The position numbers and the translations under genes were made by a program. The notes under the pieces are model-generated. The model was given only the letters and a program-made list of their open reading frames with translations, did not search any database and was not told the origin of the DNA. Shown in pieces: positions 31,518 through 48,010 of a DNA stretch of 64,000 nucleotides (position 1 is the first letter of the stretch; every line of letters starts with the position of its first letter). The stretch comes from Candidatus Woesearchaeota archaeon (lineage in GTDB: Archaea > Nanobdellota > Nanobdellia > Woesearchaeales > UBA525), in contig JAPPOH010000008.1 of the NCBI GenBank assembly GCA_028818155.1, positions 10,376 through 74,375 of the forward strand, written 5' to 3'.

Positions 31518-31781
31518 ATGGTACTAAGAAAAAGAGTGACAGCTAGAGTTGTTGAATGGTTTCTCTTTCTGTTGATGCTCTGCTTCGGAGCAGCAGGGGT
31601 GTTCATCTTCATATCTGCGGTCGAGCTCAGTAATCCTGATCCAATAGTAATCGTCATCGAACTCTTGCTTATCATACTTATCGCGATCCTCGCAATGAGT
31701 GCAGTACTTGTCAAATTATACGAACAGAACATTATACCTGGTTACAAGCAAGATAGAGCACTCGAGCTGGCAGAAAAATGA
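31518..31781 (+). CDS. small two-TM membrane protein (87 aa)
   Basis: GGTGAGG lies upstream of the ATG. ATGA overlap with the following archaellin gene. Confidence 0.45.
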   Translation: MVLRKRVTARVVEWFLFLLMLCFGAAGVFIFISAVELSNPDPIVIVIELLLIILIAILAMSAVLVKLYEQNIIPGYKQDRALELAEK

Positions 31782-32362: not shown

Positions 32363-32368
32363 TGCCCT

Positions 32369-33451: not shown

Positions 33452-33467
33452 AAAGAAGGGGTGGGGC

Positions 33468-34073: not shown

Positions 34074-34183
34074 AGTTCTTATACGTTTCTCCTAATATTT
34101 AAATTTATCTATTTATTCGATAATTCCGAATTAATGGAAAAGTTTATATACGTTTTTGCCCGCTGCACAGTTGTGCAGTAACG

Positions 34184-34645: not shown

Positions 34646-35328
34646 TGTTCCGCATCGACCTCAAAGGAGATGAACTGCACAAAAAACTAGGGGGTGGAAT
34701 CCCTCGGAACGCGTTCGTTCTCATCGAAGCAGAGAACGCAATCGGAAAATCCGCGCTTGCACAACGATTCATTTATGGCGCGCTCACGAATAAACACACA
34801 GCAACATACATCAGCTCTGAAATGACACTCGTTGGTTTCATGAACCAAATGAAATCACTCCATTACGACATCAAATCAAAAATCCTCAACAAAGATCTCC
34901 TGTATATTTCACTCTTCCCCGCATTTAGCGACATCACATTCCGCGCACATCTCATCGAAACGCTCTTGGGAGCACAGCAACTCTTTGAGAAAGATATTAT
35001 CGTTTTCGACACCTTGAGCGAGCTGCTCGTCAAGCAGGAAATGTCGTTGCAAGAGTGCTTTGACTTCGCAAGCCACTTGAAGAAAGTTGCAGGAAAAGAC
35101 AAAGCAATCGTTTTCTGCGTCGATCCCAGCAGACTCAACGAAGCGCTTCTTTCGATGCTCAAATCAGTTTCTGACGTGTACATCAGTATGGGTTCAAAAG
35201 AGATCTACGGCAAAAGCGTCAAAGTCATGCGTGTACAGCGGTTTAACGGCGCAATGAATGATGTTGAGGAAGAAATCGCTTACAAAGTAAAAGCAGGCGT
35301 CGGTATCGTGCCAGAGCTCGCAGGTTAG
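34645..35328 (+). CDS. arlH: ArlH/FlaH RecA/KaiC-like ATPase (227 aa)
   Basis: LGGGIPRNAFVLIEAENAIGKSALAQRF and IIVFDTLS. Sits directly upstream of arlI. Confidence 0.8.
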   Translation: MFRIDLKGDELHKKLGGGIPRNAFVLIEAENAIGKSALAQRFIYGALTNKHTATYISSEMTLVGFMNQMKSLHYDIKSKILNKDLLYISLFPAFSDITFRAHLIETLLGAQQLFEKDIIVFDTLSELLVKQEMSLQECFDFASHLKKVAGKDKAIVFCVDPSRLNEALLSMLKSVSDVYISMGSKEIYGKSVKVMRVQRFNGAMNDVEEEIAYKVKAGVGIVPELAG

Positions 35329-35329
35329 C

Positions 35330-36967: not shown

Positions 36968-38631
36968 ACCTCAAAAAAATAAGTCTTGTTGCAGGATATA
37001 AAAGCACAAAAGATATGTTTTTGCGGTTCATGGCACCGATGATTGGTGGTGCGATCATCGCGAGTGGCGCGATGTTTTTCTTCAGCAAGTTTATCGCATT
37101 GGCGCTCCTCATAGCAGGGTTTCTCCTCGCATTTCTCTATCCGTATGGAAAATTCTCAACGAAGAAGAGATCAATCGACGCATCATTACATCTTTTCATT
37201 ACGTATTCCGGCACGATCAGCACAATGAAGATCTCTCGGCAGCAATTATTCAAGAAAATTGCAGAGAAAGGGATGTTTGGCGAAGTCAGCAATGTTGCAG
37301 AAAAAATTCTGTATCTCTCGAGGGGATGGAAGCTCAGATTTTCAGAATCGTGTCGACGTATGGGTGCACGTGTTCCTTCACAGATTCTTGCTGACTTTTT
37401 CGACCGTTTTGCTGTCATGATGGACTTCGGACAGGACCTTGAGGTTTTCCTTGCAGAGGAGCAGATTGCGGTGTTGAACGATTACGGCACTGAATACCGA
37501 AAATCACTCGAGGTTATCAGATTCTTACAAGACCTGTTCATTTCACTTATCGTCGCACTCTCTTTTATTCTTGCAATCGCACTCTTGGCACCACTTGTTG
37601 TTGATATTTCCGTCGTGTTAATTGTGCAAGGTGCACTCCTTGCGTTCTTTGTGGTTGACGGTATCATCTTGTTCATGATTATTGGGTTTGTTCCACCTGA
37701 CAAGATCTTTCACGGTCTCAAAGAGAGCAATCCAGCACAAGAATGGATTAAACGATGGTTTATTATTGCTGTTATCATTGGAGCTATCGCAATTCCAGTA
37801 CTTGTCTGGCAAACAGAGTGGCCGTTCATGGTTTGTATTGTTGTTGGTATTCTTCCTCTTCTATTACCTGGCTATCTTGCTTCTCGAGAAGAAAAGAGCG
37901 TCCTTCGAAGAGATCGACTGTTTCCGGTGTATGCACGAACGCTCGGTGCTGCAGTCGAAGTGCGAAATGGAGGTGTTATTTCCGCACTCAAATCGACACA
38001 GATCCACGATTTTGGACTACTGAACAAAATGTCGATTGATCTTTATAGTAGATTGCGCCTTGGGTCTGACAAGTACAAATCATGGTATCGTTTCGCTGTT
38101 GATTCAGGAAGCCATTTGATCTACCACTTCAGCAGAATCTTCTCAGAATCTATCTACATGGGAGGAAATGCACACAAGATTGGCGATATTATCAGTGGAA
38201 ACGTGATGAAACTCCTCTCGCTTCGAACATTACGATTGCAACTTGCAGGGGGGATGCGTGGTGCATTCTACGGTTCACTTATCGGCCTTGGCTCTGTGAT
38301 GTATGTGACAGTTGAAATTTCACAGCAACTCGTTGTGTTATTTAGCCAGCCATTAGAAGGAACAGATGCATTTTCTTTCGTGAATTCGATTGTTCCGCAG
38401 GCAACAGACAGTGCTGATTTCGCTCGTATCGTGATGTTTATCGGTATTCTTCTTGTTGCACATGCAGGCGCGTCAGCGGCTATTCTCAAGTTTATTGACG
38501 GCGGCTCGCTTTACGCCGCGCTTATCGACTTTGTTCTGATGGTTGGCGTCTGTGCTGCAATGTCTCTCGTCATTCCAGGTATGACTGAAGGATTGTTGCC
38601 TGACTTCTCTGGCGTCTGGCAAGCAACGTAG
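36964..38631 (+). CDS. arlJ: ArlJ/FlaJ platform membrane protein (555 aa)
   Basis: ATGA overlap with arlI. Polytopic, with two cytoplasmic helical domains. Confidence 0.85.
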   Translation: MNLKKISLVAGYKSTKDMFLRFMAPMIGGAIIASGAMFFFSKFIALALLIAGFLLAFLYPYGKFSTKKRSIDASLHLFITYSGTISTMKISRQQLFKKIAEKGMFGEVSNVAEKILYLSRGWKLRFSESCRRMGARVPSQILADFFDRFAVMMDFGQDLEVFLAEEQIAVLNDYGTEYRKSLEVIRFLQDLFISLIVALSFILAIALLAPLVVDISVVLIVQGALLAFFVVDGIILFMIIGFVPPDKIFHGLKESNPAQEWIKRWFIIAVIIGAIAIPVLVWQTEWPFMVCIVVGILPLLLPGYLASREEKSVLRRDRLFPVYARTLGAAVEVRNGGVISALKSTQIHDFGLLNKMSIDLYSRLRLGSDKYKSWYRFAVDSGSHLIYHFSRIFSESIYMGGNAHKIGDIISGNVMKLLSLRTLRLQLAGGMRGAFYGSLIGLGSVMYVTVEISQQLVVLFSQPLEGTDAFSFVNSIVPQATDSADFARIVMFIGILLVAHAGASAAILKFIDGGSLYAALIDFVLMVGVCAAMSLVIPGMTEGLLPDFSGVWQAT

Positions 38632-38756
38632 TGGTTACTATACATATCATATTCTCTATGTGTATGGCACTGTTGCAAAAATTGAAGTAGCGTTTTCGTT
38701 AATGTACCAAATGCCTATACTGGCATCCATAAAACAGTGATCGAGGTGACTACATA

Positions 38757-39344
38757 ATGAAGCGGGCACGAAAAGGGGAGATGGGTATGGGTACACTAAT
38801 TATTTTTATCGCGATGATTTTAGTCGCGGCAGTTGCTGCATCCGTGCTTATTAGCACGACAGGCGCACTGCAAAACAAAGCTTTGGCAACAGGTAGAGCA
38901 ACAACCTCGGAGGTTGGGACGTCTATCCATGTCATGGAAGTCTACGCAGAAGATGGTTCGAATCAACAAGTGGATTACTTGTACGAATCTGTGAAATTAA
39001 GTGCAGGATCAGGTGCAATCAGGTTTTCTGACACACTCATGAGCTTGAACTTAAACGATCAAACTGCAGACTACGAATATAACTCGAGCGTCGATTGCAC
39101 GAATACGAGTACAACAACAGCAGGTGGAGACTTTGGTGTCGAGTATTTGATTAACGGATCAAACAACCAAGCAGGATATCTCGTAAAGGGAGATGTTGCA
39201 CGGGTTTGTATCCAATCGCCAAGAACAATTACAGAAGGCGAAGAAATCAAACTCAGCTTGATACCAATGGTTGGACACGCAGTCGTGACAGAGACATCAA
39301 CACCAGATTTGATGATCGACACACGCATTACGGTCTTCCCATAG
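38757..39344 (+). CDS. arlB: archaellin 1 (195 aa)
   Basis: [51 protein letters not shown] at 38744-38750. Confidence 0.9.
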
Positions 39345-39375
39345 ACAAGTGACAACATGGGTGAGGTGGCATAAC

Positions 39376-39963
39376 ATGAAAACAACAAGAAAAGGTGAAA
39401 TGGGTATGGGTACCCTAATCATCTTTATTGCGATGATCCTCGTAGCTGCAGTCGCAGCAGCTGTACTTATCAGCACTACGGGCGCATTGCAAAATAAAGC
39501 ATTGGCAACAGGTAAAGCAACGACAACGGAAGTGGGAACATCACTCTCTGCACTTGAAGTGTATGTGGAGAACGGCTCTGATCAGTCAGTAGATTATTTC
39601 TACGAGACAATCAAGCTTGGTGCAGGCTCTGACTCAATTAGATTCAGTGACACACTTTTAACGTTGAACCTCGACAATACAACGGCAGACTATGAGTACA
39701 GCTCAGGAGTTGACTGTACGAGTACAGGTTCCATGAGCGCAGGCGGCGACTTTGGTATTCAATACCAAATTGTTGGTAATAACAACCGATCAGGCTACTT
39801 AACGAAGGGCGATGTAGTGAAGCTATGCTTCCAAGCACCACGATCTGTGAACGAAGGTGAAGAATTCAAAGTTAACCTCGTTCCAATGGTTGGCAGCCCA
39901 CTCGTTGTTGAAGCAGCAACGCCTGACTTGATGGTGGATACCAGAGTTACAGTTTTCCCATAA
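39376..39963 (+). CDS. arlB: archaellin 2 (195 aa)
   Basis: [43 protein letters not shown] lies upstream. The track start 39349 adds a non-conserved extension. Confidence 0.9.
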
Positions 39964-39976
39964 GATTGTAGCATTC

Positions 39977-39984
39977 TTTTTTTT
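39977..39984 (+). terminator. T8 tract after archaellin 2 (possible partial terminator)
   Basis: An oligo-T run 14 nt after the stop. Archaeal RNAP terminates at oligo-T. Confidence 0.35.
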
Positions 39985-40014
39985 CCTACTTTTTAGGTAA
40001 CGGAGGAACTGACA

Positions 40015-40596
40015 ATGACAAGAAAGGGAGAAATGGGTATGGGTACCTTGATCATCTTTATAGCTATGATCTTGGTGGCTGCCGTTGCGGCTGCAGTATT
40101 AATCAGCACTACGGGTGCCCTACAGAATAAAGCATTAGCGACAGGTAAAGCAACAACGACAGAAGTGGGAACATCACTGACAGCAATCGAACTCTATGTA
40201 GAAGACGGCTCTGATCAGTCGGTAGATTATTTCTACGAGACAATCAAGCTTGGATCAGGCTCTGAAGCACTACGGTTCACAGACACGCTGGTGTCCTTGA
40301 ACTTAAACGATCAGACCGCTGACTACGAGTACAACGCAAGCGTTGACTGTACAAACACTAGCCTTATTATTGCAGGTGAAGAGTTTGGTATTCAGTACCA
40401 AATCAACGGTACAAACAACCAAGATGGCTACTTGACGAAGGGTGACGTAGTGAAACTCTGCTACAGAGCACCACGAGCAGTAACTGAGGGCGAAGAGTTC
40501 AAAGCAAGTCTTGTACCTATGACTGGTAGTCCGCTCGTCGTCGAGGCAGCAACGCCTGACTTAATGGTGGATACGAGAATTACAGTCTTCCCATAA
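40015..40596 (+). CDS. arlB: archaellin 3 (193 aa)
   Basis: [36 protein letters not shown] lies upstream. Confidence 0.9.
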   Translation: MTRKGEMGMGTLIIFIAMILVAAVAAAVLISTTGALQNKALATGKATTTEVGTSLTAIELYVEDGSDQSVDYFYETIKLGSGSEALRFTDTLVSLNLNDQTADYEYNASVDCTNTSLIIAGEEFGIQYQINGTNNQDGYLTKGDVVKLCYRAPRAVTEGEEFKASLVPMTGSPLVVEAATPDLMVDTRITVFP

Positions 40597-40601: not shown

Positions 40602-40618
40602 TTTTTTTTTTTTTTTTT
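40602..40618 (+). terminator. T17 tract terminating the archaellin transcript
   Basis: 17 consecutive T residues beginning 6 nt after the arlB3 stop. The last 2 nt overlap the stop codon of the convergent KaiC-like gene. Confidence 0.6.
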
Positions 40619-41351
40619 AGATATCCGTGAACATTGTCTGATCAGGATACACAACAACGCCATTCTCTGTGATCTTAAATAACCTGATTTCTTTATCATG
40701 GTTAGTTCCGCGCATCTTTTTGATTGCAATGCCAGGAATGAACTTTGCACCCTGCCTGACGCGGTATAATGCGATAACCCCGTCAGTAATGAACTCTTCA
40801 ATCCCGTATGTTGAGAGCTCTAATGATCCCTCTTTCGTCTCCGTAAGTAATAATGCAGTCACGCCAAGTGAGGAGAGCGTGTTACAGAGCATCGCAAGTG
40901 CTGTTCTCCGTTCTTCCTCGGTTTCAAGAAGCATTAGGAAAAGATTGAGTGAGTCGAGCACGAGCCGCTTCACGTTCTTTTCTTTCACAATCTCCTCAAT
41001 TTCTTTAATTAAGTGATGCACATTCGCGTTCACGTTCTTCATTGACTGTGTGATAACGGCAAGCGGTCCACCAATGAGGAGAAAGTTCCCTGTTTTTTCA
41101 AGTTCAGCGATATCAAGGTGCAGCTCGTGCATGTCTGCATAGAGCTTTTCTTTGCTTTCCTCAAGTGTCACATACATACTTGTCTCGTCATTCCGAGCTC
41201 CTTCACAAATGAATTGCACCGCAAGGGTTGTTTTTCCAATGCCTGCTCCTCCTGAAAGTAGGATATTCCTTCCATGTAGAAAACCGCCGTGCAGCATCTT
41301 GTCAAGGCCTTTACATCCTGTTGTGGCACGGTCTATACTCCCCGAAGACAT
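40617..41351 (-). CDS. single-domain KaiC/RecA-like ATPase (244 aa)
   Basis: TTGCKGLDKMLHGGFLHGRNILLSGGAGIGKTTLAVQF, Walker B RLVLDSLN, and ..KKMRGTNHDKEIRLFKITENGV... I use ATG 41351. The track extension to 41645 overlaps the rhomboid gene. Confidence 0.8.
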   Translation of the reverse strand: MSSGSIDRATTGCKGLDKMLHGGFLHGRNILLSGGAGIGKTTLAVQFICEGARNDETSMYVTLEESKEKLYADMHELHLDIAELEKTGNFLLIGGPLAVITQSMKNVNANVHHLIKEIEEIVKEKNVKRLVLDSLNLFLMLLETEEERRTALAMLCNTLSSLGVTALLLTETKEGSLELSTYGIEEFITDGVIALYRVRQGAKFIPGIAIKKMRGTNHDKEIRLFKITENGVVVYPDQTMFTDI

Positions 41352-41935
41352 CGATATTTCCTCCGCTGTAACACAGGCTGCAGTTTTCGTAGTGCAAGAA
41401 ATAAGAAACTTCCAACAAAGAGTCCAGATAGATGGAACAGACTCTGTATGAATGATGCAATGAATGTGTTCGTAACGTCGCCACGAAGTAACGAGAGCAT
41501 CGTAGGAAAGATAATGATAGCAATAATAGCAAAGAGTAACGTGTTCGTCTTCAAGTACTTCCGCGGAAGATTGTACGCAATGACGCCAAAACCACCATAC
41601 ACTGCTGAGGAAGCCCCGAGAATGGTCGCGTGTGTTACAAACCATATAGGAAGTGCTCCGACTATTCCAGTGAGAAGATAGACAACAACAAACATGAGTG
41701 GCAGCATGCCAATTTCATAGACAAGCACACCAAGAAGCATAAACCCTACAATATTCTCAAGCAGGTGTGAGAGATCAATGTGAGCAAACTGATAGGTGAA
41801 AAAACGCCACACCTCCCCTTGCTGTACATTCTCGTACACTAGGGAAAAACGATCAGCACTTGCAGGAATGTGAAACACACCGACGTACAGAACAACCATA
41901 CACGTCACGAAAGTTACAATTTGCCACTTCATCAT
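41333..41935 (-). CDS. rhomboid-family intramembrane serine protease (200 aa)
   Basis: WRFFTYQFAHIDLSHLLEN, GASSAVYG (catalytic Ser) and FHLSGLFVG (catalytic His), with 6 TM helices. Confidence 0.8.
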   Translation of the reverse strand: MMKWQIVTFVTCMVVLYVGVFHIPASADRFSLVYENVQQGEVWRFFTYQFAHIDLSHLLENIVGFMLLGVLVYEIGMLPLMFVVVYLLTGIVGALPIWFVTHATILGASSAVYGGFGVIAYNLPRKYLKTNTLLFAIIAIIIFPTMLSLLRGDVTNTFIASFIQSLFHLSGLFVGSFLFLALRKLQPVLQRRKYRCLRGV

Positions 41936-42114
41936 TTCCCTCGAAGAATATATCGTCTGAGTAATCGTTTCTCATGTTTCCAGAACAAGAAGAGAAGCAC
42001 ACCCACAAGTGCTGTTCCAACACCAAGGGATGCTCGAGAACCTTGCACAAAGAGCGGCACGCTCGCAATGATGAAAGCTAACCCACCTACACCCCAGAGC
42101 ACCCAACGACGCAT
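41932..42114 (-). CDS. small two-TM membrane protein (60 aa)
   Basis: ATGA overlap with the rhomboid start. AT-rich promoter region upstream. Confidence 0.4.
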   Translation of the reverse strand: MRRWVLWGVGGLAFIIASVPLFVQGSRASLGVGTALVGVLLFLFWKHEKRLLRRYILRGK

Positions 42115-42132
42115 ACGCTCTTTGTGCTGTTG

Positions 42133-42152
42133 AAATATTTAACATTATATAA
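42133..42152. promoter_or_regulatory. AT-rich bidirectional promoter region (AAATATTTAACATTATATAA) between divergent KaiC-type operons
   Basis: Two TATA-like elements in opposite usable orientations. The minus-strand ATG is at 42114 and the plus-strand ATG at 42210. Confidence 0.4.
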
Positions 42153-42209
42153 CCAGTCTTGACACAATACACGGAAAGAAGATTAAAGGGTATTTGGCGT
42201 AGTTCGTCG

Positions 42210-43862
42210 ATGAAGCAGGGGAGTCAAGAAGCGAGTACGCTTCGCTGTAGCTCGACGGGTGTTGAAGAACTCGATCATATTTTGCATGGTGGGTGGCCTA
42301 GTGGATCAGTTATTCTATTAACGGGCAAGCCAGGAACAGGAAAAACAATCCTTTCCTTCCAATGGCTCTTTAATGGCGTCAGTATGGGTGAGAACGGACT
42401 CTATATCACACTTACAGAGCCACTCTTTCGTACAGTGAAGAATCTCGAGAATATGCAATTCTATGACCGCGAAGCGATCGAAAGTGAAAAACTCAAGATT
42501 ATCGATATGCGACAGAAGGAAGCACGCACACCAGAACAAACTATCAAATTCTTGAGCAAACAAGTGATCGCAACAAAAGCAAAGCGACTATGCATAGATT
42601 CAATTACAGCAATTGCATACCAACTCGATGACAAGCAAAAAATCCGCTCATTCATCTTCGAACTCGGAAAAACGCTCGCGACACTCGGATGCACAACAGT
42701 ACTCACAAGCGAAGTAAGTGACAAAAACAAACTCTCTGTCTATGGCGTCGAGGAGTTCATTTCTGACGGCATTATCAGAATGGAGCAGGTGAAACATGAA
42801 GATACAATGCATCGAGTCATGCAAATCGTGAAACTCAGGGGTGTTGGTTATCGAGCAAGAGATATCACCTACAAAATAGGTGATAAAGGAATCATCCCAT
42901 TTCGCCACTATACACTCCCGTTAAGCTACAAGTCATCAGAACGTCGAGTCTCAACAGGCATGCCAATGCTTGACAAAATGATGCATGGAGGCATTTTCAA
43001 AGGTTCCTCAACATTCATTGCTGGCTCAACAGGAACCGGCAAGTCAGTTTTTAGTTTGCAGTTCATGCAGGCAGGCCTTACGAACGAAGAACGATGCTTG
43101 TATGTCAGCTTCGAAGAAAGCAGTAATCAAATCAGAAGAAATGCAATGCGCTTTGGATGGAACTTCGACGAAAAACAAGATCAACTCTTCCTCAGGTGTA
43201 TGTATCCTGATGAACGACTTCTTGACGAACATTTCGCAGATATCAAGAAAATCATCGACGAGAAGAAAATCTCCAGATGTGTAATTGATTCACTCTCATC
43301 AATCTCGAGTGCATTCTCAGAAAAAGCATTCGAGCGTTTCGTCCACACACTATATGCATATCTCAAGCTCATGAATGTAACAGCGGTCTTCACACTCGAA
43401 ACAGACTCAAATTCAGGTATGTCAGGCTTGACAGGCACGCAAGTATCAACGATCACTGACAACGTCATTCTTCTTCGCCATGTTGAGATGCAGGGACAAC
43501 TCAGGCAGTTCATGAACATCGTGAAAGTCAAGGGGGGATCACATAGCAGGGGACTCAGAGTATACAAAATTACCAGACATGGCGTAGAAATCGGCCAAAA
43601 AATGTCAGGATACGAAGGATTGATGACAGGTATTGGAAGGAAAGTATCTGATACAATCGAAGAGAAACTCGAAAACGAATTTTGCGAATTCCTCGGTCCA
43701 ATAGGCTCACAAGTATTCAACAAGATCCTTGAAACGGGTATCAATGAGCATAGTATCACAACGTACATCGACTCGCTCTCAGAAGAAGGCATTATCAAGG
43801 CCTCAAATGCTGAAGCGTTCAAAGTAGATGTGCTCAACATTCTTGAGCACAAGCAACAATGA
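42210..43862 (+). CDS. double-domain KaiC-like ATPase with ~80-aa C-terminal extension (550 aa from ATG 42210)
   Basis: Two P-loops (LLTGKPGTGKTILSFQ and IAGSTGTGKSVFSLQ) and two Walker B strands (LCIDSITAI, CVIDSLSSI). The track TTG 42159 sits only 7 nt from the TATA element. Confidence 0.85.
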   Translation: MKQGSQEASTLRCSSTGVEELDHILHGGWPSGSVILLTGKPGTGKTILSFQWLFNGVSMGENGLYITLTEPLFRTVKNLENMQFYDREAIESEKLKIIDMRQKEARTPEQTIKFLSKQVIATKAKRLCIDSITAIAYQLDDKQKIRSFIFELGKTLATLGCTTVLTSEVSDKNKLSVYGVEEFISDGIIRMEQVKHEDTMHRVMQIVKLRGVGYRARDITYKIGDKGIIPFRHYTLPLSYKSSERRVSTGMPMLDKMMHGGIFKGSSTFIAGSTGTGKSVFSLQFMQAGLTNEERCLYVSFEESSNQIRRNAMRFGWNFDEKQDQLFLRCMYPDERLLDEHFADIKKIIDEKKISRCVIDSLSSISSAFSEKAFERFVHTLYAYLKLMNVTAVFTLETDSNSGMSGLTGTQVSTITDNVILLRHVEMQGQLRQFMNIVKVKGGSHSRGLRVYKITRHGVEIGQKMSGYEGLMTGIGRKVSDTIEEKLENEFCEFLGPIGSQVFNKILETGINEHSITTYIDSLSEEGIIKASNAEAFKVDVLNILEHKQQ

Positions 43863-44356
43863 CAACACTTCAAGAAGCGCTACAAAAGAAGCACAAAATT
43901 TTGATGCTTGAGCTTCCCACAGAACACTATTTTCACCACAACCTTGCTACGTTGAGGGAACTGACAGCGCCAGGTATTTTTATCAGTACACAGCGTCCAG
44001 CAGCAAACGTCACAACACACTTCAAGAAAGAAAACATACATGACGTGCACATCATAGATACAACTGCAGACCAAGAACATGAGAGTTGTTCGTGTGTCAC
44101 CACAGATGTCGATGCGATTGTGGGTGCCATCAATGCACAATTAAATGATGAAACCAAATTTATTTTTATCGATTCACTATCAACAATAACACTATACAAG
44201 CCACTCTCAGAAATACTACGATTATCCGAGTTTCTTATCACAACAGCAAACACATCAAACGCCACAGTCCTTTTTGGTATTGCAAAAGATCTCAAGCATA
44301 AGAAATTCATCGAAGATATTGCGCTCCAAGTAGACAGCATAGTGAATGTCCAATGA
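43859..44356 (+). CDS. P-loop-less KaiC-derived (DUF835-like) protein, paralog 1 (165 aa)
   Basis: ILMLELPTEHYF replaces the Walker A motif. It retains FIFIDSLSTITLY followed by ..NATVLFGIAKD... ATGA overlap with the KaiC stop. Confidence 0.55.
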   Translation: MTTLQEALQKKHKILMLELPTEHYFHHNLATLRELTAPGIFISTQRPAANVTTHFKKENIHDVHIIDTTADQEHESCSCVTTDVDAIVGAINAQLNDETKFIFIDSLSTITLYKPLSEILRLSEFLITTANTSNATVLFGIAKDLKHKKFIEDIALQVDSIVNVQ

Positions 44357-44865
44357 TGCAACTCCCTATACGTGAGAATACTATACTCTTTCTTGAGACT
44401 CGTCCTGCGAAAGCAAATAACGCAACGCTTGAGATCGTGAAAGAAATGGCATCACATGCCCATGTCGTTGTTCTCTCTGTGAATAGGCCATACGAAAACC
44501 TCATGCAGACATATCAAGAGAACGGAGTAAATACGGAAAACGTGTTCGTTATAGATTGCATTTCAGCAAGCCAAGGCGCAGCAGCAACTGGAAAGAACGT
44601 GGTTTTTATCGAAGACGCAAATGAGCTAACGGAGATCGCAATAGCAATTGATGAGCATATGGAATCGTTCGTTTGTATTGATTCTATCACAACAATGCTC
44701 CTCTACAACAAACCTGACGTCTTCACAAGGTTTTTGCATAGTGTCTTGACAAAAATGCGCATCAATCACATAGGAGGTGTCTTCACGTCCTTGGTTGATG
44801 AGGGGAGCAAGGAAATACGTGCAGAAATCGCACAACTGTGCGATGAGGTGTTCACGTATGAATAA
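44353..44865 (+). CDS. P-loop-less KaiC-derived (DUF835-like) protein, paralog 2 (170 aa)
   Basis: ILFLETRPAKANNATLEIV replaces the Walker A motif. It retains FVCIDSITTMLLY followed by ..GGVFTSLVDEG... ATGA overlap with the preceding gene. Confidence 0.55.
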   Translation: MMQLPIRENTILFLETRPAKANNATLEIVKEMASHAHVVVLSVNRPYENLMQTYQENGVNTENVFVIDCISASQGAAATGKNVVFIEDANELTEIAIAIDEHMESFVCIDSITTMLLYNKPDVFTRFLHSVLTKMRINHIGGVFTSLVDEGSKEIRAEIAQLCDEVFTYE

Positions 44866-45484
44866 TCTTGTCATGATCCCAATTGCTGTTCTTGTTCTCT
44901 CGGGCTTGGGCCTGCAACTCAATGATATTGCACAAAAGGCATCAGGAAAGACAATTTCATTCGCTGACAATGCAGGCGAAGCAGTGGATTGCGCACTTCT
45001 TGGCATCGCTATTGAGGAATGTTCCCCAGACCTCCTCGAAGTAGCGTTCGAAGATGATTTACGGGAGTTTGAAGAATTCAACAGGGATTTTGCTGAGAAT
45101 CTTTCTGACAGCCAATCAAAGATACATCTTATTTTGGAAAAGGGAGAATCGTTCAAGGCAAGTCATAACAAAGAGTTTGTTATTCGCATTGATGATATCG
45201 ATGTGGATAATGAAATGATTGAGCTCATCGTTGTTGATCTTTCTGACGTTACGTCAGTCATGAGGATTCCATTCGGCTTTGGTGAAGAATTGAAGCTTGA
45301 TGTGAGTGATGATGGATTCTCAGACATCATATTACACATCTCTGCGCTCGATACGACTTCAGTTGATCTTTCAGTTGAGATCATTCACGGGGAAGTGACC
45401 CCATTAGATATTTCTGTCTTGCTACTCTTACTAACAACAGGCGTGCTCTTCTACGTTTTTTACACAGAAAAGGACGGTGACTGA
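44858..45484 (+). CDS. acidic exported protein with N-terminal signal/anchor and C-terminal TM helix (208 aa)
   Basis: MNNLVMIPIAVLVLSGLGL start and C-terminal ISVLLLLLTTGVLFYVF. 8-nt overlap with the preceding gene. The track start 44777 is in-frame read-through of the upstream gene region. Confidence 0.55.
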   Translation: MNNLVMIPIAVLVLSGLGLQLNDIAQKASGKTISFADNAGEAVDCALLGIAIEECSPDLLEVAFEDDLREFEEFNRDFAENLSDSQSKIHLILEKGESFKASHNKEFVIRIDDIDVDNEMIELIVVDLSDVTSVMRIPFGFGEELKLDVSDDGFSDIILHISALDTTSVDLSVEIIHGEVTPLDISVLLLLLTTGVLFYVFYTEKDGD

Positions 45485-48010
45485 ATGCGATTCCTGATCG
45501 CTCTTCTCTTCCTTCCTTCACTTGTTGCAGCTGCACCAGCGCTCTCTGTTGAGAAAATATCATATGAGTATGGCGAGCAAGTGCACGCAATTGCATGTGG
45601 TGATGATCCATCCCTTGCAGTAAGTTGCCTAAACGGCAAAATTCTTGAGGAGCAATGGTCTAGTGCATGCACAATATTTTTGTTTGATTCGTACGATCTT
45701 ACATGTCAAAAACCTATGCTTCGAGCATATGATGAGACGGGAGCAACAGAACAAACACTCGTGATTCGTCAGGACAAGAAAATTGTTGAACACGCAGTAA
45801 AAGAGAACACAACAGACCCGTACGAGATCGCAGTGCAGATCTATGCGTTTTCTCTTCTTGAAGATGAAGGGGAGATAGAGAAGTTACTTGATGTACTTAA
45901 AGAGCAGAGAGATGATGACGAAAAGTGTTGGCCGAGCGATGCATGCAGTATTGCAACAACAATCGACATTGCATATTTACTACACTTCGCAGAGATAAAC
46001 AGATCAAAGCGTGTGTATGATGATGCACTCTTGTGGATAGAGTCACATCAGAATCGCGTGATCGAGGATGCATGGTATGCTGAAATCAGAGCAGATGAAA
46101 CAACAGCATGTGTGCTGAATATTGACGGAGGCACAACATCATTTGCGCTTGACGACACAGAACTCAACACTGTGGATGTAACATACACGACCGACGCGTA
46201 CTTGAACTTGAGCTGTGATGACAGCTTCTGTATCGAAGTGTTCGATAGCTTTGATCGAGCCGTATTTGAAGATTGCGGCGATCAAAACTCAAACTCATCG
46301 TTTAAAATGTATGGGCCATGCTGGTCTTCTTCAAAGTGGTCCGAATGTGATCCACGACTCACAGCAAAAGCACTACTACTTGATGGGCTTTCCACTGAGG
46401 CGTACGATGAAGGCCGTACATGGATCAACGAGCACATCGTCACTGCAGGTACAGGTGGAAGTCATATCGAGCAGAGCCAGAACGTTCTCACGAACACATA
46501 CATATACAATGTGACACAGGATGCTGATATTCTCAAGTGGGTGCTTCACGCACAGAATAACGATGGCAGTTTCGGCGAAACGAGTGAAATGATCCTTTCT
46601 ACACTTGAAGCAACACGGATACTCACGTCACTCAAGGAAGAAGAATGGATTAGCGATGCTATTGAATGGCTTTCTCTCATCCGACCATCCACTGGCTGGA
46701 ACGATCTCCTACACGACACGTTGCAGTTCAACGTATTCATAACTGAGCATCCATTTCTCCGAACGAAACCACAGCTCATAGGAGATGGCCAATTCTCACT
46801 CCTGAGCTCAAAACCTTATGGCGTGCAGTACAACCTGTCGCAATCACTACAAGACATTATCACAGTCGATGCGCCAGCACTCGTCAATAACTCAAAGGGG
46901 AAAGTTCGGCTCATCACAACAAACGATGGCGTCTACACAGGGTATATCATAGCATACAACGAATCGTTCATGCAACACCTCCCTGTCCGTATAGAGCGCA
47001 CGCCAACATTCGCGCTTGACTTCAAAGAAACCCATTACCTCTTTGAGAATCCAGGCCAACTCTCAGTGCCAATACAAAAATCATCATCACTGCTTGATTG
47101 TGCATTCTGGTTCGACGAATTTTTTATGAATAACTCACATGAAATACTCGATGCTGCCTCCATTCGTTTCAAGTACGAACTTCCAAATGACGCAGAAGAG
47201 ACGATCCATGGAGGATATACATGTGCATCTCCACTTGGTGTACTTGAGGATACATTCTCGTTCAATGTGAAAACATTCTCCAACCCTCCATTTTCGCACG
47301 AAATCGACACAACAAGCATTAACGAGACACCGGCAAAACTAACAATCAAGAACGAACTCAATGAGCCAATTCCAGTGCGTCTTTCATGGTTGAAGGACGC
47401 GTCAGTGTACCCTGTTGCTCCACAATACACTGTAAAAGATACTGCAGTTATATATCTTTATCAGCAAGAACCCTCTGTCTTGAATATCACTGAAAGAAAT
47501 ACTCTCAGAATTGAGGCGTTCGGGTATACAGAAAAAATCCCTCTACTCATCACACTTGACGATACACCACATGAATTGCCGAAACCTAAAATATGGCTGA
47601 AGGTCTTACTCAGCATACTCGGCATTGTTGTTCTTGGCGCAATGTGCACTATACTCGTTAAACAGTATCGTTTGAAAAAAGAAGAGGAGCGTGTAAAGAA
47701 AGAACAAGAACAGCAGGAGAAGGAGCAGAAGAAACGGAAAAAGCGCAGAAAACCTCCGAAGCCGAAAAAGCCGAAATCACTTGTTGAAGTCGCTATCGCG
47801 ATCCAGCGATCCATGGGGAAAAAGGATGAACAAATTCTCAAGGATCTCCTCGAGAAAGGGTATAAGAAATCAGAAGTGACGCCCGCGATGAAGGGCCTCG
47901 TGAAAGATACGAAGCGGGTTGAGAAGGAACGAAAAGAGGAGAAAGCAGCTGAAGAGGAGAAAAAGGCAGCTGAAGAGGAAAAACATTCTGAAGAAGAGAA
48001 AAAAGATTAG
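45485..48010 (+). CDS. large exported protein with alpha/alpha-toroid-like repeats, a C-terminal TM helix and a Lys/Glu-rich cytoplasmic tail (841 aa)
   Basis: Signal peptide MRFLIALLFLPSLVAAA. Contains KWVLHAQNNDGSFGE and AIEWLSLIRPSTGWND (prenyltransferase/TED-like repeats). TM helix LLSILGIVVLGAMCTILV. The ATG abuts the upstream TGA. Confidence 0.7.
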   Translation: MRFLIALLFLPSLVAAAPALSVEKISYEYGEQVHAIACGDDPSLAVSCLNGKILEEQWSSACTIFLFDSYDLTCQKPMLRAYDETGATEQTLVIRQDKKIVEHAVKENTTDPYEIAVQIYAFSLLEDEGEIEKLLDVLKEQRDDDEKCWPSDACSIATTIDIAYLLHFAEINRSKRVYDDALLWIESHQNRVIEDAWYAEIRADETTACVLNIDGGTTSFALDDTELNTVDVTYTTDAYLNLSCDDSFCIEVFDSFDRAVFEDCGDQNSNSSFKMYGPCWSSSKWSECDPRLTAKALLLDGLSTEAYDEGRTWINEHIVTAGTGGSHIEQSQNVLTNTYIYNVTQDADILKWVLHAQNNDGSFGETSEMILSTLEATRILTSLKEEEWISDAIEWLSLIRPSTGWNDLLHDTLQFNVFITEHPFLRTKPQLIGDGQFSLLSSKPYGVQYNLSQSLQDIITVDAPALVNNSKGKVRLITTNDGVYTGYIIAYNESFMQHLPVRIERTPTFALDFKETHYLFENPGQLSVPIQKSSSLLDCAFWFDEFFMNNSHEILDAASIRFKYELPNDAEETIHGGYTCASPLGVLEDTFSFNVKTFSNPPFSHEIDTTSINETPAKLTIKNELNEPIPVRLSWLKDASVYPVAPQYTVKDTAVIYLYQQEPSVLNITERNTLRIEAFGYTEKIPLLITLDDTPHELPKPKIWLKVLLSILGIVVLGAMCTILVKQYRLKKEEERVKKEQEQQEKEQKKRKKRRKPPKPKKPKSLVEVAIAIQRSMGKKDEQILKDLLEKGYKKSEVTPAMKGLVKDTKRVEKERKEEKAAEEEKKAAEEEKHSEEEKKD

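What the first reader, a model, noticed from the sequence alone, without database searches (positions are those of the whole stretch)
42210..48010. KaiC-centred five-gene operon next to the archaellum: double-domain KaiC, two P-loop-less KaiC/DUF835-like paralogs and two exported proteins
Seen in sequence: five plus-strand genes are chained without gaps. There are ATGA overlaps at 43859 and 44353, an 8-nt overlap at 44858, and TGA directly followed by ATG at 45485. Gene 1 is a two-domain KaiC with both P-loops intact (GKPGTGKT, GSTGTGKS). Genes 2 and 3 are paralogs of about 165-170 aa. They keep the KaiC/RecA Walker-B strand and following elements (FIFIDSLSTITLY, FVCIDSITTMLLY), but have ELPTEHYF and ETRPAKAN where the P-loop should be. 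Genes 4 and 5 are extracytoplasmic: a signal/anchor at the N-terminus, a TM helix at the C-terminus, and for gene 5 a Lys/Glu-rich cytoplasmic tail. Established knowledge: comparative genomics by Makarova, Galperin and Koonin proposed archaeal KaiC-like ATPases as signalling hubs. As I recall, that work treats DUF835 as an inactivated KaiC derivative. ArlH of the archaellum is itself KaiC-like. Inference: this is an ATPase plus pseudo-ATPase complex that couples a cytoplasmic nucleotide or phosphorylation state to cell-surface proteins. It sits about 1.6 kb from the archaellin genes and is divergent from a second KaiC/rhomboid operon. I know of no characterised system with this composition.
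Basis: partly seen in the sequence, partly recalled or inferred. Interest (0 to 1): 0.8.

Follow-up and report, generated by a model that had tools for sequence, protein, structure and literature searches.

The report
KaiC sensory cassette beside the archaellum
Next to the swimming-organelle genes of an uncultured Woesearchaeota archaeon lies a real five-gene operon whose first three genes (a KaiC clock-type ATPase and two catalytically dead copies of its fold) recur as a cassette in many uncultured archaea, usually with signal-sensing modules and often beside pilus genes, so it is most likely an uncharacterised variant of the predicted archaeal KaiC signalling hubs.

Summary
There are five chained plus-strand genes, with the stated overlaps and motifs. 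Gene 1 (K2) is a two-domain KaiC. It matches Pfam KaiC at E 5e-103 and cyanobacterial KaiC at about E 1e-84, and keeps the Ser-Thr pair at the KaiC phosphorylation site. Genes 2 and 3 (A and B) are paralogs of each other (hhalign 99.5%). Both are predicted to have the KaiC/ArlH/RecA fold but lack the P-loop, the catalytic Glu pair and the C-terminal Arg-finger segment.

The conserved unit is not the five genes. It is a cassette, K2-A-B, often followed by a single-domain KaiC (K1). I found it in 43 further loci from Thermoplasmatota, several DPANN lineages, Altiarchaeales and Hadesarchaea.

- In other DPANN-type loci a Cache/four-helix-bundle + HAMP (often + PAS) membrane receptor sits inside the cassette.
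- In Thermoplasmatota, K2 carries fused PAS/GAF domains.
- Type IV pilus operons lie next to the cassette in 7 of 21 long loci.
- Genes 4 and 5 follow B only here and in one related contig.
- Another gene-4 relative sits directly after an archaellin gene.

Best reading: this is a KaiC-based sensory module acting on archaellum/pilus-type surface filaments. Genes 4 and 5 are a lineage-specific membrane partner and are as likely to be the input as the output. It is a new variant of a kind already predicted by comparative genomics.

The parts
42210..43862 (+). K2: two-domain KaiC-like ATPase or autokinase (550 aa) with a ~60-aa C-terminal tail domain.
   Evidence: Pfam KaiC PF06745, E 5.4e-103, two stretches. 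NCBIfam KaiC PRK09302 scores 379 bits, below the 408 cut-off. Matches cyanobacterial KaiC structures at E 6e-92 to 1e-84 across residues 14-488, with 'qvSTitd' aligned to KaiC 'hiSTitd'. Carries the P-loops GKPGTGKT and GSTGTGKS. The N-domain reads 'TLTEP' (one Glu) and the C-domain 'SFEES'. The C-terminal tail (residues ~480-550) is conserved in the K2 proteins of 10 other distinct loci at E 6e-7 to 2e-13.
43859..44356 (+). A: P-loop-less KaiC-fold paralog (165 aa), a pseudo-ATPase.
   Evidence: AlphaFold model pLDDT 87, pTM 0.85. Best Foldseek PDB hits are ArlH/FlaH 4yds (E 8e-6, TMq 0.65), PH0284, PH0186 and KaiC. 5 of 6 family members hit Pfam KaiC. The window protein itself has only sub-threshold hits to DUF835 and DUF7090. 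The invariant motif 'MLELP..YF' replaces the P-loop, 'S..RP' replaces the catalytic EE, and the Walker-B-like 'FIFIDSL' is kept.
44353..44865 (+). B: second P-loop-less KaiC-fold paralog (170 aa), a member of Pfam DUF7504.
   Evidence: DUF7504 scores 47.6 bits (cut-off 27) and KaiC PF06745 scores 29.3 bits (cut-off 26.6). All 21 of 21 family members hit Pfam KaiC. Model pLDDT 83; best hits are PH0284 (E 2.6e-5, TMq 0.66) and the KaiC CI domain. Paralogous to A: hhalign 99.5%, E 2.6e-23. In the alignment to KaiC, 'ET..' sits at the P-loop, 'SANRPY' at 'sfEEs' and 'FxxIDSITT' at Walker B, and the protein ends before the KhRG Arg-finger segment (Pfam match covers profile positions 49-178 of 231).
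44858..45484 (+). g4: bitopic membrane protein (208 aa). It has an N-terminal TM or signal anchor, a conserved extracytoplasmic domain with two Cys (~residues 20-65), a DxDxDG-like FG-GAP-type motif, and a C-terminal TM helix.
   Evidence: Hydropathy analysis. 113 relatives among 1.8 billion representative proteins; many are stand-alone proteins of 80-130 aa that share only the N-terminal domain. No Pfam or NCBIfam family. A relative follows B in L016. Another follows an archaellin gene in L064/L065. Another is encoded away from any KaiC in L061.
45485..48010 (+). g5: type I membrane protein (841 aa). It has a signal peptide, a ~700-aa ectodomain whose N-terminal part resembles an alpha-macroglobulin TED (alpha/alpha-toroid) domain, a TM helix at 701-728 and a 113-aa Lys/Glu-rich cytoplasmic tail.
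   Evidence: Pfam TED_complement scores 22.6 bits on the whole protein and 25.1 bits on residues 86-440 (cut-off 22). It has a 'QNNDGSFG' repeat-like motif and no CGEQ thioester motif. The ectodomain has 14 Cys and 11 N-x-S/T sites. Its only detected relative is the partial ORF after the g4-like gene in L016 (BLASTP E 4e-15). No other homolog was found.
42115..42209 (.). 95-nt divergent intergenic region with an AT-rich TATA-like box (TTTAACATTATATAA, 42138-42152). It is the only non-coding gap in the system and presumably holds the promoter(s) for both operons.
   Evidence: Read directly from the sequence. No transcript data are available, so promoter function is an inference.
40617..41351 (-). 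K1: single-domain KaiC-like ATPase (244 aa from the internal Met), reverse-oriented directly after the archaellin genes. It is probably the fourth cassette component.
   Evidence: Pfam KaiC E 2.8e-60. Scores 151 bits against a profile built from K1 proteins that flank A-B cassettes elsewhere, compared with 120 and 109 bits for the two K2 domains. It shares the C-terminal 'VVYPxQxxF' signature. L035 has the same divergent layout of K1 against K2. A B-K1 fusion ORF occurs in L042.
41333..41935 (-). Rhomboid-family intramembrane serine protease (200 aa), co-directional with K1.
   Evidence: Pfam Rhomboid E 2.4e-16. NCBIfam rhombosortase scores 63 bits, below the 84 cut-off. A rhomboid also lies convergent to A-B in L018.
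41932..42114 (-). Small 60-aa ORF, first gene of the divergent operon. Called as a gene by the source annotation.
   Evidence: Gene call in L001/L002. No significant family.
31778..40596 (+). Context: the archaellum cluster. It holds an archaellin-like minor subunit, an ArlC-like gene, an HTH regulator (minus strand), a second minor archaellin-like gene, ArlH, ArlI, ArlJ and three tandem archaellins.
   Evidence: Pfam Arch_flagellin, FlaC_arch and HTH hits. Precomputed T2SSE and KaiC hits for ArlI and ArlH. ORFs listed.

Best explanation
The locus encodes a KaiC-based sensory signalling module.

**Core engine.** K2 is a double-domain KaiC-type ATPase/autokinase. It presumably forms a hexamer, and its state is set by ATP turnover and Ser/Thr autophosphorylation.

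**Partners.** A and B are two paralogous, catalytically dead copies of the KaiC fold. They are non-enzymatic partners, most simply a heteromeric adaptor or scaffold. They would read or modulate the K2 state and connect it to the single-domain KaiC (K1) and to downstream targets.

**Input.** Input comes from membrane or ligand-sensing modules. In other lineages these are a Cache/HAMP/PAS receptor encoded inside the cassette, or PAS/GAF domains fused to K2. In this Woesearchaeota lineage that slot is taken by g4 and g5.

**Output.** The most likely controlled process is assembly, activity or expression of type IV-pilus-superfamily surface filaments. Here that is the adjacent archaellum.

**Shown:** gene structure; fold and loss of catalytic motifs in A and B; conservation of K2-A-B(-K1); the recurrent sensor domains; recurrent adjacency to pilus or archaellum genes.

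**Inferred:** physical complex formation; the direction of signal flow; the target.
For: 1. K2 is a close KaiC homolog with both Walker A motifs, the C-domain Glu pair and the Ser-Thr pair aligned to KaiC S431/T432.
2. A and B are mutual paralogs. Both have a confident predicted KaiC/ArlH/RecA fold. They lack the P-loop and the catalytic Glu pair and end before the Arg-finger segment.
3. In 43 other loci, A lies directly upstream of B in 32, and a KaiC lies within 5 kb in 36. Most exceptions are truncated contigs. The adjacent K2 proteins form one orthologous group with the signature 'TLTEPLFK..NLE..FYDR'.
4. A B-K1 fusion ORF in L042 is Rosetta-stone evidence that B and K1 act together.
5. 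In eight loci the gene just upstream of A is a membrane receptor with a HAMP domain: L018, L021, L024, L030, L031, L035, L054 and L056. In five of them (L031, L035, L054, L056 and, with an extra ORF, L024) it lies between K2 and A. Six have a Cache-type and one a four-helix-bundle ectodomain. Four have PAS. None has a recognisable output domain.
6. K2 proteins of Thermoplasmatota carry PAS and GAF domains after the KaiC domains.
7. A type IV pilus ATPase or platform gene lies within 10 kb in 9 of 43 loci. Among loci with at least 12 kb of flank the count is 7 of 21. At least four different layouts occur, and five truncated loci start with the same pilin genes. In this window the neighbour is the archaellum.
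8. g4 and g5 are tied to the cassette by overlapping or abutting codons. The order B-g4-g5 recurs at about 30% identity in L016. A g4 relative sits 11 nt after an archaellin gene in L064.
9. Published precedents exist. KaiC genes are enriched beside archaellum and type IV pilus loci (PMC4858521). The KaiC-like CirA in the Haloferax arl cluster, also reverse-oriented, represses motility (PMC10983859). The KaiC-like ArlH binds the motor ATPase ArlI in a phosphorylation-dependent way (PMC8978795).
Against: - No experimental or transcript data exist for any member. All hosts are uncultured.
- Complex formation between K2, A, B and K1 was not modelled, because no multimer tool was available.
- About two thirds of the long loci have no pilus ATPase within 10 kb. 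The output may therefore be broader or different. The enrichment estimate is rough and the loci are phylogenetically related.
- g4 and g5 are absent from all 41 genome-collection loci, and a g4 relative is encoded alone in L061. Their functional tie to the cassette rests on one genome lineage.
- Profile-profile similarity of A and B to KaiC is weak on its own (hhalign probability 69% and 16%). The fold assignment rests on the Pfam hits and on predicted structures.
- My neighbourhood maps use a simple ORF heuristic. Pilin calls by regular expression are approximate.
Confidence: 0.55

Rival explanations
1. A and B are ArlH-like accessory subunits of the filament motors rather than signalling adaptors. 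As nucleotide-free mimics of ArlH, they would dock on the hexameric ArlI/PilB-type assembly ATPase of the neighbouring pilus or archaellum. K2 and K1 would control that docking by phosphorylation.
For: The best structural match of A is ArlH/FlaH (4yds). The pilus operons next to the cassette have an ArlI-like ATPase and platform protein, and no ArlH homolog was detected in them. ArlH-ArlI binding is known to be switched by ArlH autophosphorylation (PMC8978795).
Against: The ArlH match is only marginally better than the matches to PH0284, PH0186 and KaiC. Neither protein matches the NCBIfam ArlH models. This window already has its own ArlH (34645-35328). Most cassettes with long flanks have no pilus ATPase nearby. 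Sensor receptors embedded in the cassette fit signalling better.
Confidence: 0.15
2. K2-A-B is a self-contained KaiC regulator or timer unrelated to g4 and g5. Those two genes are ordinary lineage-specific surface proteins, such as an adhesin, a cell-envelope component or an archaellum-associated component, that merely share the transcript.
For: The cassette occurs in 43 loci without g4 or g5. g4 relatives occur alone (L061) or after an archaellin gene (L064). g5 has almost no detectable relatives.
Against: There is an 8-nt overlap between B and g4, and g5 starts directly after the g4 stop. The order B-g4-g5 is retained at about 30% protein identity in L016. Other lineages place a membrane receptor in the cassette, so a membrane partner is a recurring feature.
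Confidence: 0.2
3. The cassette is a recombination or DNA-repair mediator set: a RadA/Rad51-type ATPase with non-catalytic paralogs, like the Rad51 paralog complexes.
For: All the proteins belong to the RecA superfamily. There are weak hits to Rad51, RadA/Sms, RadB and DnaB_C, and RadA and RecA appear lower in the structure hit list.
Against: KaiC matches are stronger by tens of orders of magnitude (5e-103 against 1e-11). The KaiC phosphorylation-site pair is conserved. The neighbours are HAMP/PAS/GAF sensors and pilus genes, not nucleases, helicases or DNA-binding proteins.
Confidence: 0.03
4. The operon is an anti-virus defence system built on a P-loop ATPase.
For: PADLOC gave only generic P-loop-level matches (mad8 E 2e-9 over 60 residues; AbiO, Nhi).
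Against: A, B, g4 and g5 have no PADLOC match. There are no nuclease or other effector domains. The genomic context is conserved and chromosomal, and the base composition is unremarkable.
Confidence: 0.02

Closest known systems
Archaeal KaiC-like 'signal transduction hubs' with inactivated KaiC homologs (iKaiC: DUF835, MEDS). Proposed by Makarova, Galperin and Koonin 2017, as summarised in PMC5847659.
   Same: A KaiC-family ATPase is combined with P-loop-less KaiC-fold proteins. It is linked to sensor domains (PAS, GAF, HAMP) and predicted to act as a signalling hub.
   Different: A and B are stand-alone proteins of 165-195 aa from two distinct paralogous families (DUF7504-type and a sister family), not DUF835 or MEDS. 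They occur as a fixed pair after one particular K2 ortholog group, often with K1. I could not read the 2017 paper. I therefore cannot say whether this exact cassette is listed there. No paper in the searchable library mentions DUF7504 or DUF7090.
KaiC-family genes associated with archaellum and type IV pilus loci (Makarova, Koonin and Albers 2016, PMC4858521), and CirA of Haloferax volcanii (PMC10983859).
   Same: KaiC-like genes lie next to, and often in the opposite orientation to, arl or pilus operons. CirA sits in the arl cluster in reverse orientation and represses motility. K1 in this window has the same position and orientation.
   Different: The 2016 paper states that in most cases no second component for KaiC could be predicted. 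Here two conserved pseudo-ATPase partners and a receptor slot are evident. Orthology of CirA to K1 or K2 was not tested.
ArlH (FlaH), the KaiC-like component of the archaellum motor.
   Same: It has the single-domain KaiC/RecA fold and is the best structural match of A. It is a largely non-hydrolysing regulator that binds the motor ATPase (PMC8978795).
   Different: ArlH keeps its P-loop, binds ATP and autophosphorylates. A and B have no P-loop and are shorter. They do not reach the NCBIfam ArlH or FlaH cut-offs: A scores 15 bits against a cut-off of 194.
Cyanobacterial KaiABC oscillator.
   Same: K2 aligns end to end with KaiC at about E 1e-84. It keeps both P-loops and the Ser-Thr phosphorylation-site pair.
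   Different: K2 falls below the NCBIfam KaiC equivalog cut-offs (379 < 408 and 311 < 546). The first domain has 'TE' where KaiC has the catalytic 'EE'. No KaiA- or KaiB-family hit appeared among the proteins of the operon and its immediate neighbours that I scanned. The partners are KaiC-fold pseudo-ATPases instead.
Elongator Elp4-Elp5-Elp6 subcomplex and Rad51-paralog complexes. These are heteromeric assemblies of RecA-fold proteins with degenerate ATPase motifs (stated from my own knowledge, not checked here).
   Same: Several paralogous RecA-fold proteins with degenerate nucleotide sites work as one assembly. Two A-family members hit Pfam Elong_Iki1 (Elp5), and KaiC-type domains hit PAXNEB (Elp4).
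   Different: This is an analogy only. The hits are weak, the organisms and pathways are unrelated, and ring formation by A and B is untested.

Membership tests
KaiC family (Pfam PF06745), double-domain type: gene 1 | Two tandem RecA-like KaiC domains, each with Walker A and Walker B, scoring above the Pfam cut-off. | tested here: met
   PF06745 scores 343.8 bits (cut-off 26.6) in two stretches. GKPGTGKT and GSTGTGKS are present, as are the Walker B motifs 'LCIDSI' and 'CVIDSL'.
Bona fide circadian KaiC (NCBIfam equivalogs PRK09302 and TIGR02655): gene 1 | Score above the curated equivalog cut-off. | tested here: not met
   379.0 bits against a cut-off of 408, and 311.3 against 546.25.
Bona fide circadian KaiC: gene 1 | Ser/Thr phosphorylation-site pair in the second domain, and catalytic Glu pairs in both domains. 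| tested here: inconclusive
   'qvSTitd' aligns with KaiC 'hiSTitd', and the C-domain has 'FEES'. The N-domain has 'TLTEP', with only one Glu. Activity was not testable.
Bona fide circadian KaiC: gene 1 | KaiB (and KaiA) partner genes. | tested here: inconclusive
   No KaiA or KaiB family appeared among the 19 window proteins scanned against Pfam. The whole genome was not available and I ran no dedicated KaiB search.
DUF835 (Pfam PF05763; 'iKaiC'): genes 2 and 3 | Score above the Pfam gathering cut-off (33.1 bits). | tested here: not met
   g2 scores 19.7 bits (E 7.8e-4). g3 has no hit. Only 1 of 6 A-family members hits DUF835 at all.
DUF7504 (Pfam PF24336): gene 3 | Full-length match above the gathering cut-off (27 bits). 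| tested here: met
   47.6 bits. Residues 11-167 match profile positions 4-177 of 179. 11 of 21 family members match.
DUF7090 (Pfam PF23365): gene 2 | Match above the gathering cut-off (27 bits). | tested here: not met
   g2 scores 15.7 bits. 3 of 6 A-family and 7 of 21 B-family members match at E <= 0.01 or 0.001 respectively.
Inactivated KaiC-fold protein (generic 'iKaiC' sense): genes 2 and 3 | KaiC/RecA fold. | tested here: met
   The models have pLDDT 87 and 83. Foldseek gives probability 1.0 and TMq 0.6-0.67 to ArlH, PH0284, PH0186 and KaiC. 21 of 21 B-family and 5 of 6 A-family members hit Pfam KaiC.
Inactivated KaiC-fold protein (generic 'iKaiC' sense): genes 2 and 3 | Loss of Walker A and of the catalytic residues. 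| tested here: met
   Family alignments have no GxxGxGK[ST]. 'LELP' or 'ET' sits at the P-loop position and 'S..RP[YF]' at the catalytic 'fEE' position. The proteins end before the KhRG segment. Lack of nucleotide binding itself cannot be tested here.
ArlH/FlaH (NCBIfam NF052589, NF004723, NF006320): genes 2 and 3 | Score above the curated cut-off, and an ATP-binding P-loop. | tested here: not met
   g2 scores 15.3 bits against NF004723 (cut-off 194). g3 has no hit. There is no P-loop.
Alpha-2-macroglobulin/complement TED domain (Pfam PF07678): gene 5 | Score above the gathering cut-off (22 bits). | tested here: met
   22.6 bits on the whole protein and 25.1 bits on residues 86-440. This is marginal and covers only about 60 residues of a 312-position profile, so the domain assignment is tentative.
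Thioester-containing alpha-2-macroglobulin: gene 5 | CGEQ thioester motif and MG-domain array. | tested here: not met
   g5 has no CGEQ or GCGE motif and no MG-domain hits. An MG2 domain (38.8 bits, cut-off 32.8) occurs in the unrelated 609-aa membrane protein after K1 in L007.
Rhombosortase / GlyGly-CTERM sorting system: rhomboid 41333-41935 with g4 and g5 as substrates | Rhombosortase equivalog score, and a GlyGly-CTERM signal on the substrates. | tested here: not met
   TIGR03902 scores 63.1 bits against a cut-off of 84. The g4 and g5 C-termini have a TM helix but no Gly-Gly motif or short basic tail.
Known anti-phage defence systems (PADLOC) | Match of system components to PADLOC models. 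| tested here: not met
   Only P-loop-level matches for the two KaiC proteins. Nothing for A, B, g4 or g5.

The most novel reading that the evidence does not exclude
K2-A-B-K1 is a previously undescribed four-component KaiC-type sensory system that is widespread in DPANN archaea and Thermoplasmatota.

In this reading, two catalytically dead KaiC paralogs form a heteromeric adaptor, Elp456-like or ArlH-like. The adaptor relays the phosphorylation and nucleotide state of K2 to the assembly ATPase, or to the expression, of type IV-pilus-superfamily filaments.

Output-less Cache/HAMP/PAS receptors would signal through this module instead of through a histidine kinase or a chemoreceptor array.

In the Woesearchaeota lineage the receptor would be replaced by g4 plus the TED-like g5. 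The divergently encoded rhomboid might process these single-pass proteins by regulated intramembrane proteolysis.
Probability: 0.2. Interest if true: 0.8.

Novelty: new variant of a known kind. Interest (0 to 1): 0.55.

Why it matters
Archaea encode many KaiC-like ATPases, and comparative genomics proposed them as the archaeal counterpart of two-component signalling. Almost nothing is known about how signals enter or leave these hubs.

This cassette offers a concrete and recurrent parts list:
- one KaiC ortholog group;
- two fixed pseudo-ATPase partners;
- a second KaiC;
- an exchangeable sensor slot, filled by a HAMP receptor without any known output domain, by fused PAS/GAF domains, or here by g4 and g5;
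- a recurrent neighbour, the pilus or archaellum operons.

That makes the hub hypothesis directly testable by biochemistry on four small soluble proteins. It also suggests how motility or adhesion might be regulated in DPANN archaea, which have few classical signalling systems. Finally, it gives a first functional context to Pfam DUF7504/DUF7090-type proteins and to the unannotated g4 family.

Tried and rejected
- **Makarova et al. 2017.** I tried to read it by DOI and by PMC id and it is not held. Its content is cited only second-hand, through PMC5847659.
- **g5 homolog search.** It returned only the protein itself. The Lys/Glu-rich tail probably swamped the word index, because only 8000 candidates were scored. 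'No homologs' is therefore weak evidence.
- **Sequence search of the g5 ectodomain against PDB.** Nothing found.
- **Metagenome scans.** Scans with the g5 ectodomain and with g4 as single proteins found nothing.
- **Profile search of A and B families against PDB sequences.** This gave only insignificant hits (E 0.5-0.8 to PH0186 and PH0284). Fold comparison was needed.
- **hhalign of A and B against a small KaiC alignment.** Low probabilities (69% and 16%). I used it only for motif correspondence.
- **g5 tail against L058.** The resemblance to the ORF upstream of a g4-like gene in L058 (TM helix, basic stretch, then an 'EKG[YF]..E[IV]' motif) is not significant by BLASTP (E 0.18). I do not count it as evidence.
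- **Defence-system reading.** Rejected.
- **DNA-repair reading.** Rejected on context.
- **Rhombosortase/GlyGly-CTERM reading.** Rejected.
- **Long N-terminal extension of 'A' in L024 (436 aa).** It looks like an ORF-calling artefact, an Arg-rich nonsense translation, not a real domain.
- **Structure of g5, and any multimer model.** Neither could be attempted. The two structure-prediction jobs went to A and B.

Full report
**1. Observation**

The window comes from an uncultured 'Candidatus Woesearchaeota archaeon' MAG. NCBI gives locus tags OXR66_05630 and OXR66_05645, and the same contig is in ENA as ROBB21-1 scaffold_49.

The junctions are as stated: ATGA overlaps at 43859 and 44353, an 8-nt overlap (ATGAATAA) at 44858, and TGA directly followed by ATG at 45485. 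All quoted motifs are present.

Upstream lies the only non-coding gap, 95 nt (42115-42209), with an AT-rich TATA-like box at 42138-42152. Beyond it, on the minus strand, are a 60-aa ORF, a rhomboid protease and a single-domain KaiC. The last of three tandem archaellin genes ends at 40596. The archaellum cluster spans about 31.8-40.6 kb.

**2. The proteins**

*g1 ('K2').* This is a two-domain KaiC: Pfam PF06745 at E 5e-103, and E 6e-92 to 1e-84 against cyanobacterial KaiC structures over residues 14-488. The Ser-Thr pair that is phosphorylated in KaiC is conserved in the alignment. K2 stays just under the NCBIfam KaiC equivalog cut-offs. Its first domain has 'TLTEP' where KaiC has the catalytic Glu-Glu.

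*g2 ('A') and g3 ('B').* They are paralogs of each other: hhalign probability 99.5%, E 2.6e-23. AlphaFold models built from family alignments are confident, with pLDDT 87 and 83. Their best PDB fold matches are ArlH/FlaH, the Pyrococcus KaiC-like proteins PH0284 and PH0186, and KaiC itself, at TM about 0.6-0.67.

All 21 B-family and 5 of 6 A-family members also hit the Pfam KaiC model. Family alignments and profile alignment to KaiC show three changes:
- the P-loop is replaced ('MLELP' in A, 'ET' in B);
- the catalytic 'fEE' strand is replaced by an invariant 'S..RP[YF]';
- the Walker-B-like 'hhhhDS[IL][TS]T' is kept.

Both proteins also end before the KaiC Arg-finger segment. They are therefore catalytically dead both in cis and in trans.

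B is a bona fide member of Pfam DUF7504 (47.6 bits against a cut-off of 27). A reaches no family cut-off. In particular, neither protein is a DUF835 member.

*g4.* It has N- and C-terminal hydrophobic helices. Between them is an extracytoplasmic region with a conserved two-Cys domain of about 60 residues. That domain defines an unannotated family of more than 100 clusters, many of them stand-alone proteins of 80-130 aa.

*g5.* It is a type I membrane protein. Its ectodomain gives a marginal hit to the alpha-macroglobulin TED domain, and it has no thioester motif. Its 113-aa cytoplasmic tail is 59% charged.

**3. What is conserved**

A search of one genome per GTDB species with the B family returned 41 loci. 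They come from Thermoplasmatota, Micrarchaeota, Iainarchaeota, Woese-, Pace-, Nano-, Aenigm- and Undinarchaeota and Altiarchaeales. Metagenome contigs added Hadesarchaea and others. I mapped all loci with profiles built here.

Over 43 non-window loci, A is directly upstream of B in 32, and a KaiC gene lies within 5 kb in 36. Most exceptions are contig ends.

The recurrent layouts are K2-A-B, K2-A-B-K1 (K1 being a single-domain KaiC of about 290 aa) and K1-(A)-B. The K2 proteins next to A-B form one ortholog group with the N-domain signature 'TLTEPLFK..NLE..FYDR'. In DPANN, Altiarchaeales and Hadesarchaea they also share the same C-terminal tail domain as g1.

The single-domain KaiC in the window (40617-41351, minus strand) fits the K1 profile better than either K2 domain does: 151 bits against 120 and 109. 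It carries the K1 C-terminal 'VVYPxQxxF' signature. It is also placed as in L035, where K1 is likewise divergent from K2. In L042, B and K1 are fused in one ORF. The 'second KaiC operon' is therefore most likely part of the same system.

g4 and g5, by contrast, follow B only in this organism and in L016. L016 is a 1.8-kb metagenome contig with B (partial), a g4-like gene and a g5-like gene (BLASTP E 4e-15).

**4. Context that suggests function**

*(a) Sensors.* In eight loci the gene just upstream of A encodes a membrane receptor with a HAMP domain: L018, L021, L024, L030, L031, L035, L054 and L056. In five of them (L031, L035, L054, L056 and, with one extra ORF, L024) it lies between K2 and A. 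Six have a Cache-type ectodomain, one has a four-helix bundle, and four add PAS domains. None has a recognisable kinase, chemoreceptor or other output domain. In Thermoplasmatota the K2 protein itself continues into PAS and GAF domains.

*(b) Filaments.* A type IV pilus operon (ArlI-like ATPase, platform protein, pilins and a ~290-aa membrane protein) sits immediately convergent to the cassette in many Thermoplasmatota. It is divergent in L034 and co-directional in a Pacearchaeota (L051). An ATPase or platform gene lies within 10 kb in 9 of 43 loci, and in 7 of 21 loci that have at least 12 kb of flank. Five further truncated loci begin with the same pilin genes.

In genomes of 1-2 Mb with a few such operons, chance adjacency would be a few per cent. 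This is my rough estimate, not a formal test, and the loci are not phylogenetically independent. In the window the neighbour is the archaellum, which is itself a type IV pilus relative.

*(c) g4 and archaellins.* A g4-family protein (P0035) lies 11 nt downstream of an archaellin gene in L064/L065. That archaellin matches a window archaellin at BLASTP E 4e-28.

*(d) Rhomboid.* A rhomboid gene flanks the cassette twice, in the window and in L018.

**5. Mechanism proposed**

The cassette is a KaiC-based sensory module. K2 supplies the ATP- and phosphorylation-dependent state. A and B are non-catalytic partners, most simply a heteromeric adaptor, that couple K2 to K1 and to targets. Sensor modules provide the input. 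Type IV-pilus-superfamily filaments, here the archaellum, are the most likely output.

In this lineage g4 and g5 occupy the membrane-partner slot.

The following are shown: the gene structure, the folds, the loss of catalytic motifs, the conservation and the neighbourhood regularities. The following are inferred: complex formation, the direction of signalling and the target.

Three published precedents support the proposal:
- KaiC genes are enriched next to archaellum and pilus loci, with the remark that a second component was usually not identifiable (PMC4858521).
- CirA is a reverse-oriented KaiC-like gene inside the Haloferax arl cluster that represses arl transcription and motility (PMC10983859; PMC13286277).

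**6. Rivals**

1. A and B are ArlH-like motor accessories. This is plausible and partly overlaps the main model. The window's own ArlH, the sensor genes, and the many cassettes without pilus genes argue against it.
2. g4 and g5 are passenger surface proteins. This remains possible, since g4 relatives occur alone. The codon overlaps and the repeated B-g4-g5 order argue against it.
3. A DNA-repair mediator. Rejected on hit strength and context.
4. A defence system. Rejected.

**7. Comparison and novelty**

The general kind has been predicted. Archaeal KaiC hubs with inactivated KaiC homologs and KaiC genes beside pilus or archaellum loci are both in the literature, although neither has been characterised.

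Three things appear to be new:
- a fixed pair of stand-alone pseudo-KaiC paralogs tied to one K2 ortholog group and to K1;
- an exchangeable sensor slot that includes HAMP receptors without an output domain;
- the Woesearchaeota-specific g4/g5 variant.

I could not read the 2017 paper, so part of this may already be tabulated there. No paper in the searchable library mentions DUF7504 or DUF7090. I rate the finding a new variant of a known kind, with interest 0.55.

**8. Caveats**

- All hosts are uncultured MAGs, and there are no expression data.
- The genome scan relied on two peptide patterns, so it samples only the closer B relatives.
- The apparent isolation of g5 may partly be a search artefact.
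- The TED assignment is marginal.

Noticed in passing
L042:4160-5716 (+): A single 518-aa ORF fuses a B-type pseudo-KaiC (residues 1-184) through a charged linker to a K1-type single-domain KaiC (residues 250-518). This is a natural fusion of two cassette components.
   Followed up: partly
L053:9563-10249 (+): A 228-aa chimera in an Iainarchaeum MAG. The K2-type N-domain, with an intact P-loop (GSSGSGKT) and the 'TFTEP' signature, runs up to its Walker B motif. It then continues as the C-terminal two thirds of a B-type protein (…AEIAQLCDKVLRV). This is either a recombination between the homologous Walker-B regions or an assembly artefact.
   Followed up: partly
L018, L021, L024, L030, L031, L035, L054, L056 (gene just upstream of A; between K2 and A in five of them): Membrane receptors with a Cache or four-helix-bundle ectodomain, a HAMP domain and in four cases PAS domains, but no kinase, MCP-signal, GGDEF or other known output domain. 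These are receptors that apparently signal through a KaiC cassette.
   Followed up: partly
L014, L019, L022, L026, L040, L045, L046 (downstream, convergent to the cassette): A stereotyped Thermoplasmatota type IV pilus operon: an ArlI-like ATPase of 550-660 aa, a ~588-aa platform protein, a ~150-aa pilin, a ~290-aa DUF7289-like protein and a 520-850-aa pilin-like protein. It ends head-on against the K1/B gene.
   Followed up: partly
L064:1-1361 and L065: A 290-aa member of the g4 family lies 11 nt downstream of an archaellin gene. The unannotated g4 N-terminal two-Cys domain family (more than 100 clusters, mostly proteins of 80-130 aa) may be an unrecognised archaellum-associated membrane component in DPANN archaea.
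   Followed up: partly
L007:9985-11814 (+): The 609-aa membrane protein that follows K2-A-B-K1 in this locus has an alpha-macroglobulin MG2 domain (38.8 bits, cut-off 32.8), while g5 in the window has a marginal TED hit. Two unrelated cassette-linked membrane proteins therefore carry alpha-macroglobulin-type domains.
   Followed up: no
window 41333-41935 (-) and L018:2850-3413 (-): A rhomboid protease gene flanks the A-B pair in two unrelated genomes. g4 and g5 are single-pass membrane proteins and so are conceivable substrates. The rhomboid scores below the rhombosortase cut-off, and no GlyGly-CTERM signal is present.
   Followed up: partly
window 31778-40596: This Woesearchaeota (DPANN) MAG carries an apparently complete archaellum cluster: two minor archaellin-like genes, ArlC-like, ArlH, ArlI, ArlJ and three tandem archaellin paralogs placed after arlJ. 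An ArsR/MarR-type HTH gene sits on the opposite strand inside the cluster (33468-34073).
   Followed up: partly
window 30528-31442 (+) and 49427-50362 (+): Two ~300-aa proteins with an N-terminal AbrB/MazE-type (SpoVT-like) DNA-binding domain bracket the archaellum-plus-KaiC region. They may be paralogous regulators.
   Followed up: no
window 48007-49050 (-): An exported DUF4352 protein (347 aa) converges on g5. Its stop codon overlaps the g5 stop by 4 nt, which leaves no room for a terminator between the two genes.
   Followed up: no
window 5251-9872 (-): A second secretion-ATPase-like gene (795 aa, T2SSE domain only in its C-terminal part) lies next to a 744-aa ORF. This may be another pilus or secretion locus in the same window.
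   Followed up: no
window 25538-29275 (+) and 52102-54882 (+): Two very large ORFs (1245 and 926 aa) have no Pfam family at E <= 0.001.
   Followed up: no
L036, L045, L038, L031, L023: Several genomes carry extra copies of the pseudo-KaiC genes. There are B-B pairs upstream of the main cassette, a triple A-B-B, and a tandem duplication of the whole A-B-K2 unit in L031. Two MAGs have two separate loci each (L018/L020 and L033/L044).
   Followed up: no
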